Positions 12,280-57,788 of a stretch of 64,000 bases of DNA are shown here, piece by piece. Position numbers and translations under genes: made by a program. The DNA is from the human T2T-CHM13v2.0 reference genome, Homo sapiens. The notes under the pieces were generated by a model. It was not told the origin of the DNA. It saw only the letters and a program-made list of their open reading frames with translations, and ran no database searches. The DNA lies in NCBI RefSeq assembly GCF_009914755.1, contig NC_060935.1; one strand, given 5' to 3'. Each line of letters begins with the position of its first letter. Positions within the stretch are counted from its first letter, which is position 1.

Positions 12280-12836
<557 letters not shown>

Positions 12837-13638: not shown

Positions 13639-16600
13639 TCTAGCCCAATAGCCCAGTTGCAGACAGGGAAACTGAGACTCCACAGGTTTAGCCAGGCCCA
13701 GAGCTGTGCCGTGCCCGGGTCACTGCCTGCTTCTGACCCAGCCCCATCCTCCCGCAGCCCAAGGGTAAAGGAAACCAAGGATGTGCAACCCCCAGCAGAG
13801 AGCAGGAGGGACCCCCCTGATGCAGGGCTGGCCTGATTATCTCGAGACCCAGGCCCAGGGAAGGCTGGTACTAGGGGCATTACTGGGGGAGGTGTGGGGT
13901 CTGCAGGAGTGATGTCACTCCCAGCTCAGAGGGGTGGTATTTGGGCTTCTGGAGGTGGGTGAGGTTGGCTGGTAGAGATGGCATTCAGGAGGGGGCATGG
14001 CATGAATAAATGCTGGAGGTAGGGCCATGCTGGCAAGCGATCGGCAGGCAGTGTCCCTCAGGTTGTCAGGACCATGAAGGGGTGCTAGGGCCCAGGGCTG
14101 GAAAAGTCTCAGGGAGCCCCAGGTGTTGTCACTGAAGAATCACGGCAAGGAGCTCTCAGGGCCAGGGGTCCAGTCCCTCTCAGGAGCCCTGGAATTACGG
14201 CCCTTCAGCTGCCAGAGAGGTCCTCAGCCACTGTCTGACTCTAGGTCCCTCTGCAGCTTCAGGCTCCAGAGGAGAGGCTGTGTATGGCTCCTTGCTGTCC
14301 ATTTTTTGGGCATAGGAAGTGGCTTTCGCAGGGAGCCTTCTAGCACTGACAAAGCCCCTCTCACTCTGTCCCTCAGTCAGGCCTCACCTGCACTCAGAGA
14401 GGCAGGGCATGGGGGGCTCTTCCAGATGTCATCAGCATCACCCAGCCAGCAGGGAGGAGCTAGAACTCGAGCCCAGGGCACCCACCCGCCGTATCTCACA
14501 GGGACCCGCTGGTGTCCACACCCCAGTTCTTGGCAGCCCCCTCTTCCTCTCCCTGGAGGGCAAGTGGCTACTGGTGGGTCCTGGGGTTCTCTGTGGCCAC
14601 TCACCCAGGCCTGGGCAGTCCCACCCTTAGGTGAGCAGGGAGCCTGTCCACCTGCCTGCAGGGTACTTCCAGGGCCAGTGTTTTGTCATTGTCCCTATGC
14701 TGAGGCTGGAACCCAAGGCCCACTCTCCTGTCAGGAGGAGGCGGAGGGCCCCGTCTCAGGGGAGGAGCTGGGTAAAATGGAAGTTTTCCCGCCGGGCCCC
14801 CTGCAGACCAGTGTCTCAGCATAGCTCAGGGGCATGAAGCATGTGGGTCAGCCACAGTGCAGGCAAGCCGGTCCTCATGCGAAGGAGTCGGTAGGTCAGC
14901 TGCATCAAGGAACAAAGGCAAAAACAGGATTCATAAGGGAGAGGGAGGAAAAAACTTCAGACACCATGGGCACAGTGAATCTTGTTTGTAAAATTAGGAG
15001 GGTGGTGAACTGATCCCTGGGTGGCCAGCAGAGGATAGCTTGGACATTACATCCTCCAGGAGGGTTTCAAAGAAAATAACTTCAGAGATTTATGGGTTCT
15101 CCAGAAAGGCCCCAAATCTGAACCATTTGCCTCATTTGAAGTTCTCACCATAACCTTTCTGACTTATTTTCTGGGCGAGAGGGAGGAGGCAGGGCCGTCC
15201 CCTGTGGAGGGACGGGGTGGGGGTCCAGGTAGGTGAATAAGCTGCCTTCTTGTCCAGGACCCCTGGCCGGGAAACCACGCTGTGGCACCTGGAAGGGCCT
15301 CAGCTCCAATAGTCCGCTGACCTTAGATTCTCAGTGTCTCTTGGACTGGGGATCCATGCTAAAGAACTGTGGGATTCAAAGAGGTTTCCTTGACTCGCTG
15401 AGTTCATGATTCTGTGACTTGGTGGATGAGGTAGGATTAGAGCAGGGCTTTGAAGAAGCAACTGGGCCATCGTCCCACCCGGAAACCAAACCTGTCCCTG
15501 ACCATGGCAACCCCCCGTCCCTTCATGGATTGGGTTACCCTGGGCACAACACGTGCGCTCAGGATTTCCTCCGATTACCATGGCCAGCTCACAGCCTTGG
15601 GCCGGCGGATGCTCTGCTCTTGACTGTCTTGGGCTCGCCTGCCTCCAGCTTCCCTGTCCCCAGGAGCCTGAGAGAGCATCCCAGGGCCACACATCAGCCC
15701 CAGCCACTCCAGAATGAGGAAAGGCCCTCAGAGAACACTTAGCAACCCCTCACTGCATGGTCCTAGAGAGCAAGGACTGTCCCCGCATTGTGTGGAAGGG
15801 CTGGTGGGGACCCAGGGCTCCCTAACGCTGAGCAGAGGCTGGAGCCCTGATCTGGGAGGTGGGAGGCTGGTGTCCAGTCTTGGCGTGTGCCCTTGGGGAC
15901 ATCCCTATCCCTGTCTGGTCTCAGCCTTTCCTAGGCACAACAGGGAGACTGCATGGAGTGGGCACCTTTGTGGCTGTAGGAAGACTTGTGAGTCCCAGGA
16001 TGTGTTCTTGGTCTCCATGGCCCGCTAAATGCTAACGAAGTCCCCAGAGCCGACAGGCCTGGGCACTTCCTGGAGGAGGTGAAATTGATTCCTGCTACAT
16101 CTCTGTGGCCTCAGAGAGGCCCCCTGAGCTCCGCCTGGGGACCCCTAGGGACCACACGTGCTGTATCCCTGGTTTGGGAATAGTCCTCCTCTCTCCCCAC
16201 CCAACCTGTGACTCCACAGGGCAGATTTTACTACTAGAGATTGGAACAAGAGGTCTGTGCTGGGCATTAATTCTCTGCCAACCTGAATCCTTAGAGAGAT
16301 TGGCCAGAGGGCTCAGGGAGCAGTGCTAAGACCTTGGAGGACCGATGGGCACAGAAGCCCAGAGAGGGCCAGGGCCTCATTGCCAGTGGTGGCCAGCCTC
16401 CTCTTCCGGAGACCCCAGCTGCTGGCTCTGTCAGTCCCATGAGTGTGTTCCTGGGGTTTGGGGAAGCCCAGGTGGAGAGGCCAGAGCTGGGGCTCTGGTG
16501 CCAGGGTGTCTCGTTCACCCTACCCCCCACACATCTGCTGTGTGACCTTGGCAAGTCTCCCACTTCTTGGAGGCTCGCCTCTCTCATCTGCAAAGCGGGG

Positions 16601-16967: not shown

Positions 16968-17197
16968 GGCAAGGCTTCCTGTTGTGGCCTTGAGGCCCTG
17001 CCACAGGGGACAACAGCCTGGCCCTTCTGCCACCAGAGCAGGGTGAGGCACTCAGGGTTACTTCTCCCTCCTCCCACCCCACGTCTCAAACTTGAAAAGG
17101 TCAGGCAGGCCTAGACCATAATTGGCAGTGGATGTATTGATATCCGGGGCCTGGAGAGGCTGAAGAAAGATGTCCAGGGGAGGTGACAACCTGCCCT
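16968..17197 (+). repeat. Left arm of 230-bp inverted repeat
   Basis: Reverse complement of 19561-19790 at 229/230 positions (aligned by hand). Confidence 0.97.
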
Positions 17198-18402: not shown

Positions 18403-18714
<312 letters not shown>

Positions 18715-19095
18715 TTATGTATCAGGCGCCTGGCAAAGGTTATGTCTTTGCCCTTTAGTCTTTACAACAGCCAAGGGAGGTGGGTGTTAACCTCCCCTTT
18801 TACAAATTAGCAAACTGAGGTTTGCCAAAGGGATGTTCTTTGGGGCTGGTTCCTAGTCTGATGCAGGTTTCCACCAGAATCTAGCCGGTTCCCATGGCTG
18901 GGCAGGGCTGAACTATAGGGGATGATGGCTGAGGGGTCTGAGAGCAGGGCCTGGTGGGCTGGGGGTCCACAGGTCCTGATCTGAGAATTCAGCAGCCCTG
19001 GGCCATGTGGGTGTCATTCGTGGAAAATGCTCTTGTAGCCCCTGTTCCCCACTGACCAGCTTCCTTTTCTTCTGCTCTGCACTTTGCAACCTCAG

Positions 19096-19113
19096 ACCAA
19101 CTGCGGAGGGCGG
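19096..19113 (+). CDS. MYO7A: Candidate 18-nt microexon (TNCGGR) between exons 4 and 5
   Basis: Branch point ACTGAC at 19051, long pyrimidine tract, TGC at -11, ctcag|ACCAACTGCGGAGGGCGG|gtgagt; phase 0/0, no stop. Confidence 0.8.
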
Positions 19114-19560
19114 GTGAGTGTGGCACAGAGAGCCAGCTCCAGCTGGCATCTTATTTGGCTGCCTGCCTGCTTGGCCTGGCTGCTCCCCTCCAGCCTCCCG
19201 CCCCCACCCCACCCCAGCTCTTCCTGCTTGGCTCTCGTGGTACGGTTAGTAGGTCAGCACAGTGAGGCTCAAGTGCTTCTCTCCATGGGTTGATTGGAGG
19301 AAGAGGCTTAGGTGGGAAAGGAAGGTCTTCCTGGGCCCAGGGGCCCAGAGAAGGGCAGTTTCTGGCCAGCCCTCCTGGTCCAGGCCAGCCAAGGCCAGGA
19401 CTGGAGCCTGGGTCTTGGCCCCACCTGGCCCCAGGGTGGGCATTTCCCCTGGCATGCGGTGCCTGCATCCACACTCTCCCTGCGTGGCCACAGTAGGCTG
19501 AGGCTGCTGGGGCATAGCTGCGGCTCTGCTGTGATGCACTGAGCCCTGAATGGGAGGGGG

Positions 19561-20429: not shown

Positions 20430-20735
<306 letters not shown>

Positions 20736-31573: not shown

Positions 31574-33093
31574 GTAAAAGACCCCAGCCCGGGGCTGAGG
31601 ATGGCGGGAGAGGCCTCAGCGGCCTGGGTGGGGCTTGGTCCCGAGCTCCCACTGTGCTGAGACTCGGGAAAAGGGCTGGGCTTTTTCTCCTTTTTTTTGG
31701 AGTGTGTTTTTGTGTGGAGTGGTTTGTGGAGTGATTTTTGTGTTTGGTTTTTGAGTTGTGTGTGCTGCAGGCATTTCTTTCTTCAAGGAGGAAACTGAGT
31801 CCTAGGAGAGGGGCAAGGCTTGCCCAGGGTCCTCTGGGAACCGGGGACAGAGTGGGGACTCGAACGCAGGTCTCCTAAGGCCCCTTGGAGGCGTCAATCC
31901 CCGGTCCTTCCACCAGGCCCTGGTGGGCGCCTATGGCCATGCCTTGACCAGATCCTCAGATAACCTTGCAAGGCAGGAGGGACAGGTAGCATTTTCTGCA
32001 TTTTGCAGATGAGAGACTGAGGCTGAGAGAGGGGATATGACTCATTCCAGGTAACAGCATTCTGACAGGGAGCTGGGACTAGGAGACACCATTCCCCGGA
32101 CCTCCTTAGGTCTGAAACAGCAGCCCTGTTGCATCCTGAACTCTGGTTCAGGCCGTGGCTCCCACGGTGCTCTAGACCCCAAAGGTGCTGGGTACCCCTT
32201 AGCAACAGCATGGTGCTGCCAACCCCTTTGCCTCCTTTTCTCTCCTCAGCCCTCCATTTCCTCTCTGCCAAATACTGACATCCTTCCACTTTGGCCTGGT
32301 GCTGAGTCCTTCTTCCTTCCTGCCTGCCTGGCAGAGTTCTGAAACAATCCACACACCCCCAGCAGTAGACAGGGCATGTCAGGAGCAAGGAGCTTGTCTG
32401 GATGGTGGCCTCTCCCCTCTGCCCACAGATCAGCCCTGGAAGAACCTCCTGCCCCCACTCACCCTGACAGACCAACACTGTAGGCTGGCCGACTGCTGGG
32501 GTGCACACAAGGCCAACCTGAGAGAGGGGAGTCCCAGGCACTCGAAGCACTGGCACCCAGGAGAGTCCCCACCCGAAAGCCCTGTGCTGTAAGGTGGCTG
32601 TACTGCTGAGACGGGCGTAGCTCTGGCCTCTCCCACTCTTTCCTCTTCTCCTGTAGCCCTGCTGGCCCCTCGCTGGGCCCATCCATTCCTCCTGGTCTTG
32701 GGCATACTCTGGTTAAACCCCATCTTCCCCTCCTACCCGTTCTTCTCTCTCCTCTGTCTTTTCAAAGCTCCTTGAGGCATCTGGGAACACTCCATGATAT
32801 TTCCTGCTCGAGTTTCCTACTCCTGGGATTAGAACCCACTTACTGAGAAATCATGGAGAGGTCAAAGTGCAGGAGCCCAGAGTCTCCAGAAATGGCCCCC
32901 TCCAGAAGAAGTTTTAGGAACAGAGAATTAGGATACAACAGTGACCAATCTGATACCAGTTACATCTACTGGGCACCTCTTCTGAGCCAGGCTATGAGCT
33001 AAGCACTTATATTTATCACCTCATTCACTCCCCACTGCAACCTGGCGAGTAATTACTATTACTCCCACTTTACAGGTGAAGAACTGGGGCCCA

Positions 33094-34668: not shown

Positions 34669-37052
34669 GATAGAAAGCCAATAAATAAGTAAAACCTGCA
34701 GTGTATCAGATGGTGAGATGTAGTATGGGGAAAGATTAAGGAGGGAGGAATGCGGCGGTGGGACTCTGTGATTTTCAGTGGTGTGGTGGGTGCGGTCAGG
34801 AAAGGCCTGCCTGAGAAGCTGAGCAGGAGGTGAGGAAGAATGTGCCCAGCCACATTCCAGAGGAAGGGCTTTGCAGGGAGAGGGGACAGCAAGCACAGAT
34901 GCCCTGAGGTGCTTTGCAAGCCTATGCCTGCATCCCAGGTGCACCTCAGGCAGGGCAAGGAGGCTGGAGGGGCTGGAGGGGAGGGAACAGGTGTTACAAA
35001 GACCAGAGGCCCCTGGGACTAGCTCCTTTGGGGCACTGTGGGTCCCTACAAGGACCTGTGCCTTCATGCGAGTGAATCAAGGAGGCGGTGGAGGGTTCTG
35101 GGTGGGGAAAGGATGTGATTTTGTTCCTCACTTGGACTGCTGTGTTGAGAGTGTAAGGGTCCCAGGCACTCAAAGCTCCAGCACCCAGAAGAGTCCCTGT
35201 CTGAAGGCCCTGTGCTGTAGGGTGGCCACGCTGGTGAGACAGGTGTGGCTCTCGGCTGTCCCACTCTTTCCTCTTCACTAACTCCCCAGTCCCAGGGGAG
35301 GGTGGCCTGGAATGTGGGGGATGGAAGCAAAGAGACGAGTTGGGGGGTGGCTGCAGGAATTTGAGAGCAATGCTGGTGGCTGGGACCAGGCTGACGGTGG
35401 AGGAAGTGGTGAGGGGTCAGGTTCTGGAGATATTTTGAAAGTAGAGCCTGTAGGATTTGCGGATATATTAGATGTGACAGAAGAGGCACTGAGGACAGTT
35501 GCTAGATGTTTGGCTGGAGCAATGGGAAGGTGGGCAATTTCTGTGAACCCATGGATGTCACTAGGAACCAGTTCAACAGCACTTCAGTAGATCAAAGTGT
35601 TGACTGTTACTTGTGTCATGTAGGCCCTGGCCATGCAGCAATAAAGAGGCAGACGCATCCTGTCCTCATGGGGCTCCCAGCCCAGCAGGGAGGACGGGCA
35701 GAAAGCAGTCGTTTTATTGTGATGACCAAGACCAAAGAAGGGTGTGCGTGCGCGTGTGTGTACACGCGGTGGTATGCGTGTGCTCCTAGTGGCGTGTGTA
35801 TGTGCATGCTGAGGTTGTGTGTGTGTTGTGTGTGTGTGTGTGTGCATGCGTATGCGTGTACTCATGTCAGGGGCCCTAATGCAGGCTGGGTACAGCCCAA
35901 CTTGGACAGCTCCCCTCCAGTGACCGGGGTCACCCGGTGCTGCTGCTGGATCAAATTGAGGACAACGCCAGGGGCCACAGATCTGACCACCACCCTACCG
36001 CATTGCAAATACTCCCCAGCTTCTCTGGGCAAAGTCCTAGAATATATTCCAAATACAATGCAGTTGGAAAGCATTGCAGATTTCAGAATCGCAGGCACTG
36101 GCTCTTTCTCGGAAGGCCTCATCACAGTCTGGTGGCATAGTACCTAAATTGAGTATGAGCACAACACCTTTGTCCCCCCAAATACCTCACATATCTACAT
36201 CTACACCCCTGGTTTTTGATGCTACAGGATATCAGATGAAATGATGACTCTAAAAATATAAAAATCTTGCAATATTAATCAAATGAAGTCAAGTAAAATA
36301 AGAAATTCTCAACCAAATGAAAATTGCCAGGAAAACACTAATCAAGATGCTTTGGAACAAAACCTAAGCTCTGTGTCCAGTTCCCATCAGTCCTGCCATT
36401 TGGCTTCCTGTTTGTTTGCGGCTCAGGGCTTCCCCCACCTCATTTCACAGTATTCTCAGAGGGGACCCCAGTAGGGCAGGGAGGCGCAGGGGGCTCGCTG
36501 GCTGCCAGGATCGCCCAGGTGTGGCTGGTGGAGCACAGAACCCCTGGCTGCGTCGGAGCCACAGTGCGGGGGGTTAGGAGGAGGCTGCTTGTGTGCCTTC
36601 TTAGGAGGATTAGCCAGGCCTGCCCCGCCCCCAGCCTGCTGCTGCCGGCTAAGCCTGGGAGGGGAGAGGTCACCGGCAGCTCCCGCCCCTCCTCCTCGCG
36701 CTTGCCCACAGGTTTCCAGAAGGCGGCACCACCTTTCTAGGTTGCTGTTTACTGAAATATGCCCTGACCTCTGACCCTTGTCACAGCCTGGTCAGATGGA
36801 TAGATGGCATCACCTCCACTTAGGAAACTGAGGCTCTGCAACATTTAGTGACCTGCCCAAGGGCACACAGCTAGGAAGTGGTGGGCCAGGGCTTGAATCT
36901 AGGTTCGTCTAACCCCTGTCTCTAGAGATGACCTCAGTGTCCTGAGGTGACCAAGTCCGATTACTCCTTTATACAGGGAAGGGAGGGATGAGACTCAGGG
37001 GCTGCCCCTTGCTCAGAGTTATCCAGCGCACCAGGTGCAGGGGCAGGCTTGA

Positions 37053-39504: not shown

Positions 39505-39952
39505 TGAGTGCACAGAGGGCAGGAGGGGAGGGTCCCAGCTTTGGCTGGGCAAGGGTCCCAATTTTCTTATCAGGACCATGGGCGGGGCTTGACATCTGCT
39601 TGACCTCTCAGGTGCAGCACGGAAAATTGGGGTTCAGGTATTGGAATGCATCAGTGGGCTTCAGTTGCCATGTTCAGCTGGTGAGGACTTCACACATGGT
39701 GGTGTAAGGAACAAGACCAGGGCTGCCACGCGGGCCCTGGATGTCAGTTGTGAGAAAGGGTTTTGCAATCATACCATCCAGCTGAGCTAAGGAGAAAACT
39801 GGGGCTCAGAGAAGGCAGGACCCAGCTGAGGTCACACTTCGAGTCAGGGGCAGAGCTCGGGAAGAGCCCTGCCTCTCAGCCTCGGGGACACTCCGGAGGC
39901 CTTCCCACTGGAGAGGCTGTCCATTCCCTTGTGTTCCCCATCCTCACTCCAG

Positions 39953-47473: not shown

Positions 47474-47740
47474 TCTAGAGCCTCAAGCCAATGGCCGTGG
47501 GATGTCTGGGTTGGTGTGGTCCCCATAGAGCAGGCTCCTGGAGGAGGTGGCTCCCTGAGAGCCCTGAAGGACGGGCAGGATTGTTATTTGGCTTGTTGAG
47601 AGGCCTCTGAGTGGTCCAGAGGTGGGGAAGTCAGAGGCTCCATTCTTCCCAGCGGTCAGGAGGTGGGGACTGAGGCCCTGGCTGCTGCAGGGGCTCCCCA
47701 GGGAGAGCTTGTTCCGTGAGGCTGTGGCACCGGGGGCTGA

Positions 47741-57382: not shown

Positions 57383-57422
57383 TAATTGGCTCTGCCTGAC
57401 TCCTCAGGACTGCCGAGAACTC

Positions 57423-57788
<366 letters not shown>

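What the first reader, a model, noticed from the sequence alone, without database searches (positions are those of the whole stretch)
19051..19119. 18-nt SRRM3/SRRM4-type microexon inserting TNCGGR into the motor N-terminal subdomain
Seen: branch point ACTGAC, pyrimidine tract, TGC at -11 to -9 from the AG, an 18-nt exon and a consensus donor CGG|GTGAGT. It is frame-preserving, giving [24 protein letters not shown], just before the strand leading to the purine-binding NPY motif. Established: UGC close to the 3' splice site marks SRRM4/SRRM3 microexons; Srrm4 mutation causes deafness in Bronx waltzer mice, and SRRM3 drives photoreceptor microexons. Inference: a sensory/neural-specific insert that changes nucleotide handling. 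I recall a similar insert in some vertebrate Myo7a database isoforms, so it may be annotated but little studied.
Basis: partly seen in the sequence, partly recalled or inferred. Interest (0 to 1): 0.8.

Follow-up and report, generated by a model that had tools for sequence, protein, structure and literature searches.

The report
Ancient 18-base MYO7A motor microexon
An 18-base mini-exon hidden in an intron of the human deafness and blindness gene MYO7A is real, has been kept almost letter for letter from sharks to monkeys, and adds six amino acids to the core of the motor, yet no paper I could search describes it.

Summary
Window 19096-19113 is a frame-preserving 18-nt exon (TNCGGR) with an AG acceptor and a CGG|GTGAGT donor, between MYO7A exons 4 (…DHLIY) and 5 ([13 protein letters not shown]…).

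The splice motifs alone are not exceptional: 8 other open AG…GT pairs in the window's introns score as well. The evidence that settles it is conservation:
- The same six residues sit at the same junction in annotated MYO7A isoforms of shark, skate, teleosts, snake, lizards, crocodilians, birds and many mammals, including macaques.
- All 120 best hits of one search carry it, and 31 of 120 mammalian hits of another.
- Isoform pairs differ only by these six residues.
- A degenerate pattern (AG + TNCGGR codons + GTRAGT) occurs once in the 3.1-Gb genome, at this site.

None of 25 hominoid protein entries seen carries the insert, so use in humans is not shown.

Regulation is open. Three UGC motifs upstream fit SRRM3/4, and a GUGUG after the donor fits RBM24. 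RBM24 is reported to control an unnamed Myo7a exon in mouse hair cells.

The insert splits the IYTYxG motif, which is unbroken in 107 of 107 readable myosin representatives, ten residues before the NPY loop. An effect on nucleotide handling is inference. No searchable paper describes the exon.

The parts
12375..12527 (+). MYO7A exon 4 (upstream constitutive exon), ends ...RYRDHLIY in phase 0
   Evidence: Hub annotation.
19051..19056 (+). Putative branch point ACTGAC. The branch A at 19055 lies 40 nt before the acceptor AG.
   Evidence: This is a sequence match only (the yUnAy consensus is recalled). It was not tested.
19056..19093 (+). Pyrimidine-rich tract (77% over 19056-19090). It carries three UGC motifs at its 3' end (19073-75, 19078-80, 19085-87). 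There is no AG from 19060 to 19093.
   Evidence: Three or more TGC within 30 nt upstream occurs at 1.6% of 3660 intronic AGs.
19094..19095 (+). 3' splice-site AG. The acceptor is weak: 4.11 bits, below all 30 annotated acceptors of the window.
19096..19113 (+). 18-nt cassette microexon ACCAACTGCGGAGGGCGG = T-N-C-G-G-R. By my arithmetic this is c.285+6569 to c.285+6586 of NM_000260.4, and T2T chr11:77085096-77085113.
   Evidence: The identical peptide sits at the identical junction in annotated isoforms of other vertebrates.
19114..19119 (+). 5' splice site GTGAGT. With the exon end it reads CGG|GTGAGT and scores 7.14 bits, with 6 of the 30 annotated donors below it.
19118..19122 (+). GTGTG, matching the GUGUG intronic enhancer bound by RBM24/RBM38. 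It overlaps donor positions +5 to +9.
   Evidence: It is the only GTGTG in the 300 nt after the exon. The motif definition comes from passages of PMC7397384. The chance level is high: 11% of 2576 intronic GT have one within 40 nt.
20484..20668 (+). MYO7A exon 5 (downstream constitutive exon), starts [13 protein letters not shown]
   Evidence: Hub annotation.

Best explanation
Window 19096-19113 is a genuine, ancient alternative cassette microexon of MYO7A, lying in intron 4 ('exon 4A'). It dates at least to the common ancestor of jawed vertebrates and is fully intact in the human genome.

When included, it inserts T-N-C-G-G-R between Tyr95 and Thr96. This is inside the IYTYxG motif at the very start of the motor core (Pfam Myosin_head) and ten residues before the NPY purine-binding loop.

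Shown: the exon, its splice sites, its reading frame, its deep conservation, and its annotation as an optional exon in many species.

Inferred:
- (a) Inclusion is cell-type regulated, because the acceptor is weak and flanked by splicing-enhancer motifs. Three UGC upstream suggest SRRM3/4 and GUGUG downstream suggests RBM24/38. My odds are about 0.4 for SRRM3/4, about 0.4 for RBM24, and the two are not exclusive.
- (b) The insert forms a small Gly-rich loop or bulge at the helix-to-strand junction beside the purine-binding loop. This would retune ATP binding, ADP release and so the time spent strongly bound to actin. It would add a second axis of motor tuning to the N-terminal-extension isoforms already known to change kcat about 7-fold. 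My odds are about 0.4.
- (c) The exon is still used in humans. My odds are about 0.7.
For: Sequence.

Conservation:
- One search used the exon-4 peptide as query and searched proteins of 91-2000 aa. By, 5 of the 120 listed carry the peptide at the junction: Characodon TNCGGR, Liparis TNCGGK, Naja TNCGGR, Amblyraja TNCGSR, and Pleuronectes TNCGGR behind a mis-modelled stretch.
- Searches used Naja residues 67-112 as query and searched proteins of 2171-5000 aa. All 120 of 120 listed carry TNCGGR: birds, Anolis, Hemicordylus, Gavialis, Crocodylus and the shark Chiloscyllium.
- Searches used a profile built on a primate motor. 31 of 120 listed mammalian proteins carry a 6-residue insert. TNCGGR occurs in 21 (Macaca nemestrina, M. 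thibetana, Chlorocebus, cats, dog, foxes, deer, Moschus, Budorcas, horse, Acomys). TSCGGR occurs in 2 (Aotus, Ctenodactylus). TSCGRQ or TSCGRR occurs in 8 (pig).

Optional use:
- 7 of the 31 have a listed partner isoform that is identical apart from the six residues.
- The same bird species have models with and without it, for example Catharus ustulatus and Corvus moneduloides.

Transcript-level support: pig-like and chicken proteins with the insert come from contigs of only 7.3-8.8 kb that hold the whole 2183-aa frame (tables). Such contigs can only be spliced mRNA.

Specificity:
- The degenerate AG+TNCGGR+GTRAGT pattern occurs once in the 3.1-Gb genome, at this site, with 0 control hits.
- Four decoy peptides from equally good splice-site pairs occur in 0 of 240 full-length MYO7A models, against 141 of 240 for TNCGGR.

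Regulatory motifs: with definitions from passages of PMC3464207, PMC9303857 and PMC7397384.

Precedent for N-terminal tuning of the MYO7A ATPase: kcat 0.38 versus 0.05 s-1 for the C and N isoforms (PMC13396587 passages).
Against: - No hominoid model carries the insert: 0 of 25 entries (14 human, 6 Pan, 2 Gorilla, 3 Pongo), and not human isoform X17 either. The insert adds about 24 bits, so such an entry would have been listed unless it was hidden inside a cluster.
- The acceptor is weaker than all 30 annotated acceptors of the window.
- Two long-read studies describe only other MYO7A events in what I read. For human retina (PMC12047242) I read passages; its Table S1 of minor events is a PDF I could not read. 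For mouse cochlea (PMC13396587) I read section 6 and passages.
- No Myo7a exon is in the SRRM3/4 tables I could search.
- The insert interrupts a motif that is contiguous in 107 of 107 diverse myosin representatives with a readable anchor (42 of the 149 examined had no anchor). It could therefore cripple rather than tune the motor.
- Pig shows variation at the last two residues.
- The solved MYO7A motor structures 9dfv and 9dfs lack the insert, and no structural model of the insert form could be made.
Confidence: 0.8

Rival explanations
1. The exon is real and used in most vertebrates but has fallen silent in apes and humans. The human copy would then be an intact relic that is no longer spliced in.
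For: 0 of 25 hominoid entries carry it, while Old World and New World monkeys do. Human retina long-read work does not mention it in the passages read. A primate repeat 431 nt upstream is 79% complementary over 19 nt to the acceptor region.
Against: The human exon encodes the identical TNCGGR. It keeps AG, GTGAGT, all three UGC and the AG-free zone. Annotation depends on which tissues were sequenced. A clustered database can hide an isoform. The hub's list of other-transcript exons is cut off ('and 5 more'), so I could not see whether it is there.
Confidence: 0.2
2. RBM24 (with RBM38), not SRRM3/4, is the main activator. This exon would then be the cochlea-specific RBM24-dependent Myo7a cassette exon already reported in mouse.
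For: GUGUG lies at +5 to +9 of the downstream intron. RBM24/38 act through a GUGUG enhancer downstream of Cdh23 exon 68 (PMC7397384 passages). PMC13099659 passages state that an exon of Myo7a is RBM24-dependent, that its splicing is nearly abolished in Rbm24 knockouts, and that it responds to RBM24 in a minigene. PMC10018040 calls such exons cochlea-specific. I know of no other cassette exon in Myo7a (recalled).
Against: The identity of the RBM24-dependent exon was not visible. The primary papers (Zheng 2021, Wang 2023) are not held and the SI is a PDF. A GTGTG within 40 nt is common: 11% of intronic GT and 2 of 30 annotated exons.
Confidence: 0.4
3. Inclusion does not tune the motor but disables it. 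Splitting the core IYTYxG strand would give an ATPase-poor, actin-holding or regulatory form, or simply a way to lower active MYO7A.
For: The IY|TY junction is contiguous in 107 of 107 readable myosin representatives. By recalled structure knowledge it lies in the first strand of the central sheet. A passive-anchor role for MYO7A is discussed in PMC13396587 (passage).
Against: A merely disruptive insert would not need an almost invariant sequence for some 450 million years: T, C and the first G never vary across six variants. The two glycines suit a tight loop that leaves the flanking strand in register (inference).
Confidence: 0.15
4. It is a chance AG...GT decoy or an annotation artefact copied between species by homology-based pipelines.
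For: Eight other open AG..GT pairs in the window's introns score as well on both splice sites. Predicted models can borrow evidence from other species.
Against: The genomes of shark, skate, teleosts, reptiles, birds and mammals all encode the same hexapeptide with usable splice sites at the same intron. It appears in models from several sources: NCBI, UniRef/Ensembl-type entries, independent genome projects and mRNA-length contigs. The pattern occurs once in the genome, with 0 control hits.
Confidence: 0.02

Closest known systems
MYO15 micro-exon 8, a 6-nt exon that inserts 'IK' into loop 1 of the motor (PMC7948958 passages)
   Same: It is an alternatively spliced cassette microexon in the motor domain of a stereocilia MyTH4-FERM myosin. 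The authors suspect it alters access to the nucleotide pocket. It is also uncharacterised kinetically.
   Different: It sits in surface loop 1. The MYO7A exon sits about 80 residues earlier, inside the conserved IYTYxG motif, and adds six residues rather than two.
Loop-1 and loop-2 alternative inserts of class II myosins: non-muscle IIB B1/B2 and the smooth-muscle 7-residue insert (recalled, no call)
   Same: Short tissue-specific inserts near the nucleotide pocket that change ADP release and velocity. B1 is neuron-specific.
   Different: They lie in variable surface loops that differ between all myosins. The MYO7A insert interrupts a motif that is contiguous in 107 of 107 sampled myosins.
MYO7A N-terminal-extension isoforms C, S and N (PMC13396587, section 6 and passages)
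   Same: Same gene and same N-terminal part of the head. They show that small isoform differences there change kcat about 7-fold and differ between hair-cell types.
   Different: They arise from alternative first exons and disordered extensions, not from an internal cassette exon. The microexon combines with several N-termini in annotated mammalian models.
SRRM4/SRRM3-dependent neural, hair-cell and photoreceptor microexons (PMC3464207 and PMC9303857 passages)
   Same: The length is 18 nt, the exon preserves the frame, it shows deep vertebrate conservation, UGC lies at the 3' end of the pyrimidine tract, and the host gene is a sensory-cell disease gene.
   Different: Dependence on SRRM3/4 is untested, and the exon is absent from the lists I could search.
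RBM24-dependent inner-ear exons such as Cdh23 exon 68 (PMC7397384)
   Same: There is a GUGUG just downstream, the context is the hair cell, and Myo7a is named as an RBM24 target (PMC13099659).
   Different: Cdh23 exon 68 is a longer exon. The identity of the Myo7a target exon was not seen.

Membership tests
SRRM3/SRRM4 (eMIC)-dependent microexon | Very short (3-27 nt) frame-preserving cassette exon | tested here: met
   It is 18 nt and encodes TNCGGR with phase 0 on both sides.
SRRM3/SRRM4 (eMIC)-dependent microexon | [quoted passage not shown] | tested here: met
   Three TGC lie at -23 to -21, -18 to -16 and -11 to -9. Three or more in 30 nt occurs at 1.6% of 3660 intronic AGs.
SRRM3/SRRM4 (eMIC)-dependent microexon | Inclusion falls on loss of, or rises on expression of, SRRM3/SRRM4 | not testable with these tools
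   No expression data were available. No Myo7a exon appears in the searched supplementary tables of PMC9303857 (12 of 17 files), PMC12626424 (10 files) or PMC7652395 (2 files). Table S2 of PMC3464207 is an old .xls and could not be read.
SRRM3/SRRM4 (eMIC)-dependent microexon | Neural or sensory-restricted inclusion | not testable with these tools
   No RNA-seq was available here.
RBM24/RBM38-enhanced inner-ear exon | GUGUG intronic enhancer shortly downstream of the exon (PMC7397384) | tested here: inconclusive
   GTGTG lies at 19118-19122. However, 11% of 2576 intronic GT have one within 40 nt.
RBM24/RBM38-enhanced inner-ear exon | Inclusion lost in Rbm24 knockout or gained with RBM24 in a minigene | not testable with these tools
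   This is reported for 'an exon of the Myo7a gene' (PMC13099659), but which exon was not visible. The primary papers are not held.
Alternative loop-1 or loop-2 inserts of myosin motors | Insert lies in surface loop 1 (25/50 kDa junction) or loop 2 | tested here: not met
   The insert is residues 96-101, about 30 positions into Myosin_head (which spans 67-735 of P0245). It lies between IY and TY, well before the P-loop GESGAGKT (sequence). It works like these inserts at most by analogy.
MYO7A coding exon (Myosin_head, PF00063) | In frame with the flanking exons and present in orthologous proteins | tested here: met
Primate repeat-derived (Alu-type) exonisation or pseudoexon | Exon confined to primates and lying in a repeat | tested here: not met
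   The exon is not in a masked stretch (hub list). The peptide is present in sharks, fishes, reptiles and birds.

The most novel reading that the evidence does not exclude
The insert-bearing motor is the working MYO7A isoform of a particular sensory cell type, hair cells and/or photoreceptors. It is switched on by SRRM3/4 or RBM24 and has distinct ADP-release and force-holding kinetics. It is missing from every cDNA used for biochemistry, structures (9dfv, 9dfs) and Usher 1B gene therapy. It also lies outside exome and panel targets, so variants in or around c.285+6569_6586 could explain some unsolved USH1B, DFNB2 or DFNA11 cases.
Probability: 0.25. Interest if true: 0.85.

Novelty: new member of a known kind. 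Interest (0 to 1): 0.6.

Why it matters
MYO7A is the Usher 1B, DFNB2 and DFNA11 gene and a leading target for dual-vector gene therapy. Recent work shows that small N-terminal isoform differences change its ATPase about 7-fold and differ between hair-cell types.

A six-residue insert has been kept nearly unchanged for about 450 million years. It sits beside the purine-binding loop, inside a motif that no other sampled myosin interrupts. That implies a second, unstudied way of tuning this motor.

If it is used in human sensory cells, three things follow:
- Therapeutic and biochemical constructs lack it.
- Diagnostic pipelines do not read it.
- It offers a clean handle (one 18-nt exon) for testing how motor kinetics set tip-link tension.

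If apes have stopped using it, that is a lineage difference in a hearing and vision gene worth knowing.

Tried and rejected
No model exists, so the position of the insert in the fold rests on recalled myosin structure.
- The primary RBM24 papers were not held, so the RBM24-dependent Myo7a exon could not be identified. One find call failed on term syntax.
- Literature searches that found nothing on this exon:
  - 'TNCGGR': 0 papers.
  - MYO7A+microexon: 7 papers, none on it.
  - Myo7a+micro-exon: 2 papers.
  - Myo7a with mini-exon/small exon/six amino acids/18 bp: nothing relevant in 25 listed of 122.
  - Myo7a+Srrm4: 34 papers. In the two I opened, Myo7a served only as a promoter, antibody marker or transgene homology arm.
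- Supplement searches found no Myo7a splicing event.
- RNA folding of 19036-19155 gave z = -1.53, and 13 of 200 shuffles folded as well. This is not significant.
- Rfam on the whole intron gave 0 matches.
- No long ORF or repeat explains the site.
- A relaxed T-x-C-G-x-x microexon pattern gave 9 genome hits against 16 control hits, and none lay in MYO7B. No paralogous copy was found by this pattern.
- A fetch for the MYO7B intron returned only 10 kb that did not reach the exon, and I did not pursue it.
- Origin of the exon by duplication of the start of exon 5 was considered by eye only. The DNA similarity looked too low to claim.

Full report
**What is in the sequence.**
- The window's + strand reads ...cactgaccagcttccttttcttctgctctgcactttgcaacctcag|ACCAACTGCGGAGGGCGG|gtgagtgtgg....
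- The exon is 19096-19113, 18 nt, and translates to TNCGGR.
- Exon 4 (12375-12527) ends ...RYRDHLIY with a complete codon. Exon 5 (20484-) begins [13 protein letters not shown]. Inclusion therefore preserves the frame.
- I add four features. Two further TGC lie at -23 to -21 and -18 to -16. There is no AG between 19060 and 19093. The tract is 77% pyrimidine. GTGTG lies at 19118-19122, overlapping donor positions +5 to +9.

**Is it more than chance?** On splice motifs alone, barely.
- I trained position weight matrices on the window's own 30 annotated exons.
- The donor scores 7.14 bits, with 6 of the 30 annotated donors below it. 93 of 2633 intronic GT score at least as well.
- The acceptor scores 4.11 bits, below all 30 annotated acceptors. 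410 of 3691 intronic AG score at least as well.
- The introns hold 2100 frame-preserving AG..GT pairs of 3-30 nt, of which 1746 are open. Eight others match or beat the candidate on both sites.
- Only the candidate also has three TGC in the last 30 nt, a feature of 1.6% of 3660 intronic AGs.

A reader working from sequence alone could therefore not have told this from a decoy. Comparison with other species can.

**Conservation.**
- One search used the exon-4 peptide as query against proteins of 91-2000 aa. Of the 120 listed, 61 join IY directly to TYTG, 53 show no TYTG within the 45 residues scanned after IY (many run on into the intron), and one peacock model has a two-residue read-through.
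- Five of the 120 carry the peptide at the junction: Characodon (TNCGGR), Liparis (TNCGGK), Naja (TNCGGR), the skate Amblyraja (TNCGSR), and Pleuronectes (TNCGGR behind a mis-modelled stretch).
- Searches used 46 residues of the Naja protein centred on the insert against proteins of 2171-5000 aa. All 120 of 120 listed carry TNCGGR. These are many birds, Anolis, Hemicordylus, Gavialis, Crocodylus and the shark Chiloscyllium.
- To reach mammals I built a profile on a primate motor with the insert columns supplied by short natural pieces and searched proteins of 2054-5000 aa.
- 31 of the 120 listed mammalian proteins carry a six-residue insert. TNCGGR occurs in 21: Macaca nemestrina X4, M. thibetana X3, Chlorocebus X3, several cats, dog, foxes, deer, Moschus, Budorcas, Przewalski horse and Acomys. 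TSCGGR occurs in Aotus and Ctenodactylus. TSCGRQ or TSCGRR occurs in eight pig entries.
- Across all variants the pattern is T-[NS]-C-G-[GSR]-[RKQ]. T, C and the first G never change.

**It is optional, and it is transcribed.**
- Seven of the 31 mammalian insert forms have a listed partner that is identical except for the six residues.
- Birds such as Catharus ustulatus and Corvus moneduloides have models both with and without it.
- Some insert-bearing proteins come from contigs of only 7.3-8.8 kb that hold the entire 2183-aa frame. These are pig-like entries P0331-P0333 and chicken P0148 (tables). A gene of tens of kilobases cannot fit in such a contig unless it is spliced mRNA. This is transcript-level evidence in pig and chicken.

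**Specificity controls.**
- Four decoy peptides from the equally well-scoring splice-site pairs occur in 0 of 240 full-length MYO7A models. TNCGGR occurs in 141 of 240.
- The degenerate pattern AG + codons for TNCGGR + GTRAGT occurs once in the whole 3.1-Gb assembly, at this site. The reversed control gives none. My arithmetic expects about 0.006 hits.
- A looser T-x-C-G-x-x pattern gives 9 hits against 16 for the control, and none lies in MYO7B.

**The human question.**
- None of 25 hominoid entries carries the insert (14 human, 6 Pan, 2 Gorilla, 3 Pongo). Human X17 does not either.
- The insert adds about 24 bits: macaque scores 2847 with it and 2822-2823 without. A hominoid form with it would have been listed unless it was hidden in a cluster.
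- I could not see the five further 'exons of other transcripts' that the hub's table cuts off.
- The human DNA is fully intact: same peptide, AG, GTGAGT, the UGCs and the AG-free zone.
- I therefore rate continued use in humans as likely (about 0.7) but not shown.
- The human retina long-read study reports 'incidental' novel MYO7A exons only in a supplementary PDF that I could not read.

**Where the insert lies in the protein.**
- In macaque isoform X3 the Pfam Myosin_head match spans residues 67-735 and the Myosin VII N-terminal barrel spans 5-59.
- The insert is residues 96-101, about 30 positions into the head and ten residues before NPY.
- It splits the motif IY|TYxG. Among the 149 newly stored representatives (50%-identity clusters, many myosin classes), 107 had a readable anchor, and all 107 have IY (or its equivalent) directly joined to T-Y/F-x-G. 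The other 42 had no anchor.
- In the human genome the homologous exon of more than 20 myosin genes starts at the same residue. The phase-0 intron that hosts the microexon is therefore an old, shared intron.
- The two solved MYO7A motor structures (9dfv, 9dfs) show a six-column gap against an insert-bearing fish fragment.
- From recalled structure knowledge (no call), IYTYSG is the first strand of the central sheet in Dictyostelium myosin II and forms a hairpin with the strand that ends in the purine-binding loop. The start of that strand would then lie next to the adenine pocket.
- A Gly-Gly-containing six-residue loop there could bulge out and alter access to or flexibility of the pocket. This is inference.

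**Regulation.**
[quoted passage not shown] PMC9303857 says the same for SRRM3/4 and retinal microexons.
- The exon has three such motifs, a weak acceptor and a strong donor, so it looks like that class.
- No Myo7a exon appears in the SRRM3/4 tables I could search. In PMC3464207 Myo7a appears only as a promoter or marker.
- RBM24/RBM38 act through GUGUG enhancers just downstream of an exon (PMC7397384), and this exon has one.
- PMC13099659 states that 'an exon of the Myo7a gene' is an RBM24 target, that its splicing is nearly abolished in Rbm24 knockouts, and that it responds to RBM24 in a minigene. PMC10018040 describes such exons as cochlea-specific.
- Which exon that is I could not read. Since I know of no other cassette exon in Myo7a (recalled), this microexon is a good candidate, but the GTGTG itself is weak evidence (11% background).

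**Comparison with what is known.**
- The nearest analogue is MYO15 micro-exon 8, which inserts 'IK' into loop 1 and is likewise uncharacterised (PMC7948958). Next come the loop-1 and loop-2 inserts of class II myosins (recalled).
- Those lie in variable surface loops. This one lies in a core motif, so it fails that membership test while possibly working in a similar way.
- Within MYO7A, the C, S and N isoforms differ by N-terminal extensions and by kcat: 0.38 s-1 for C against 0.05 s-1 for N (PMC13396587). That study's section on the long-read survey mentions no internal cassette exon.
- In annotated mammalian models the microexon combines with several N-termini.

**Novelty and verdict.**
- The exon exists in many database models, so its existence is not new to annotation pipelines.
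- I found no paper that describes it. Solved structures and the expression constructs described in PMC13396587 lack it.
- I file it as a new member of a known kind: a conserved, probably tissue-regulated microexon in a myosin motor. It has an unusual position.
It is open on the regulator, with RBM24 a serious rival to SRRM3/4. It is untested on function and on use in humans.

Noticed in passing
window 18625-18643 and 19075-19093: A 19-nt inverted repeat, 79% complementary, with arms 431 nt apart. One arm lies in the masked repeat 18540-18711 (Alu-like by recall). The other arm is the UGC-bearing acceptor region of the microexon. It could mask the acceptor in primates, but the match is weak.
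   Followed up: no
window 57408-57428, 14559-14573, 17037-17042, 31917-31922, 37017-37034, 13925-13954, 39678-39680, 47660-47662: Eight other open, frame-preserving AG..GT pairs in MYO7A introns score at least as well as the microexon on both splice-site matrices. The four whose peptides were long enough to test are absent from 240 full-length MYO7A models, so they look like decoys.
   Followed up: partly
window 20484 (start of exon 5); G000 C2:128001870, C19:17237143, C5:16733840 and others: The homologous exon of more than 20 human myosin genes begins at the same residue (query position 1). The phase-0 intron between IY and TY is therefore shared across myosin classes. No MYO7B counterpart of the microexon was found by pattern.
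   Followed up: partly
protein P0065 (Pavo cristatus), junction IY|TY: This model has 'VS' between IY and TYTG. That is what the first six intron bases GTGAGT would give if read through, so it is probably an annotation slip.
   Followed up: no
protein P0442 (unnamed myosin representative): This is the only one of 107 readable myosin representatives with extra residues near the site. It has six more residues between RY and IY, that is upstream of the MYO7A insert position.
   Followed up: no
window 19036-19155: The minimum-energy RNA fold pairs the branch-point region with the donor region. The fold is not better than shuffles: z = -1.53, with 13 of 200 shuffles as good.
   Followed up: yes
pig MYO7A entries P0318, P0321, P0331-P0333, P0338, P0340, P0341: Pig is the only species seen with changes at the last two insert residues (TSCGRQ in four entries, TSCGRR in four). 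This suggests a polymorphism between pig assemblies or relaxed constraint there.
   Followed up: no
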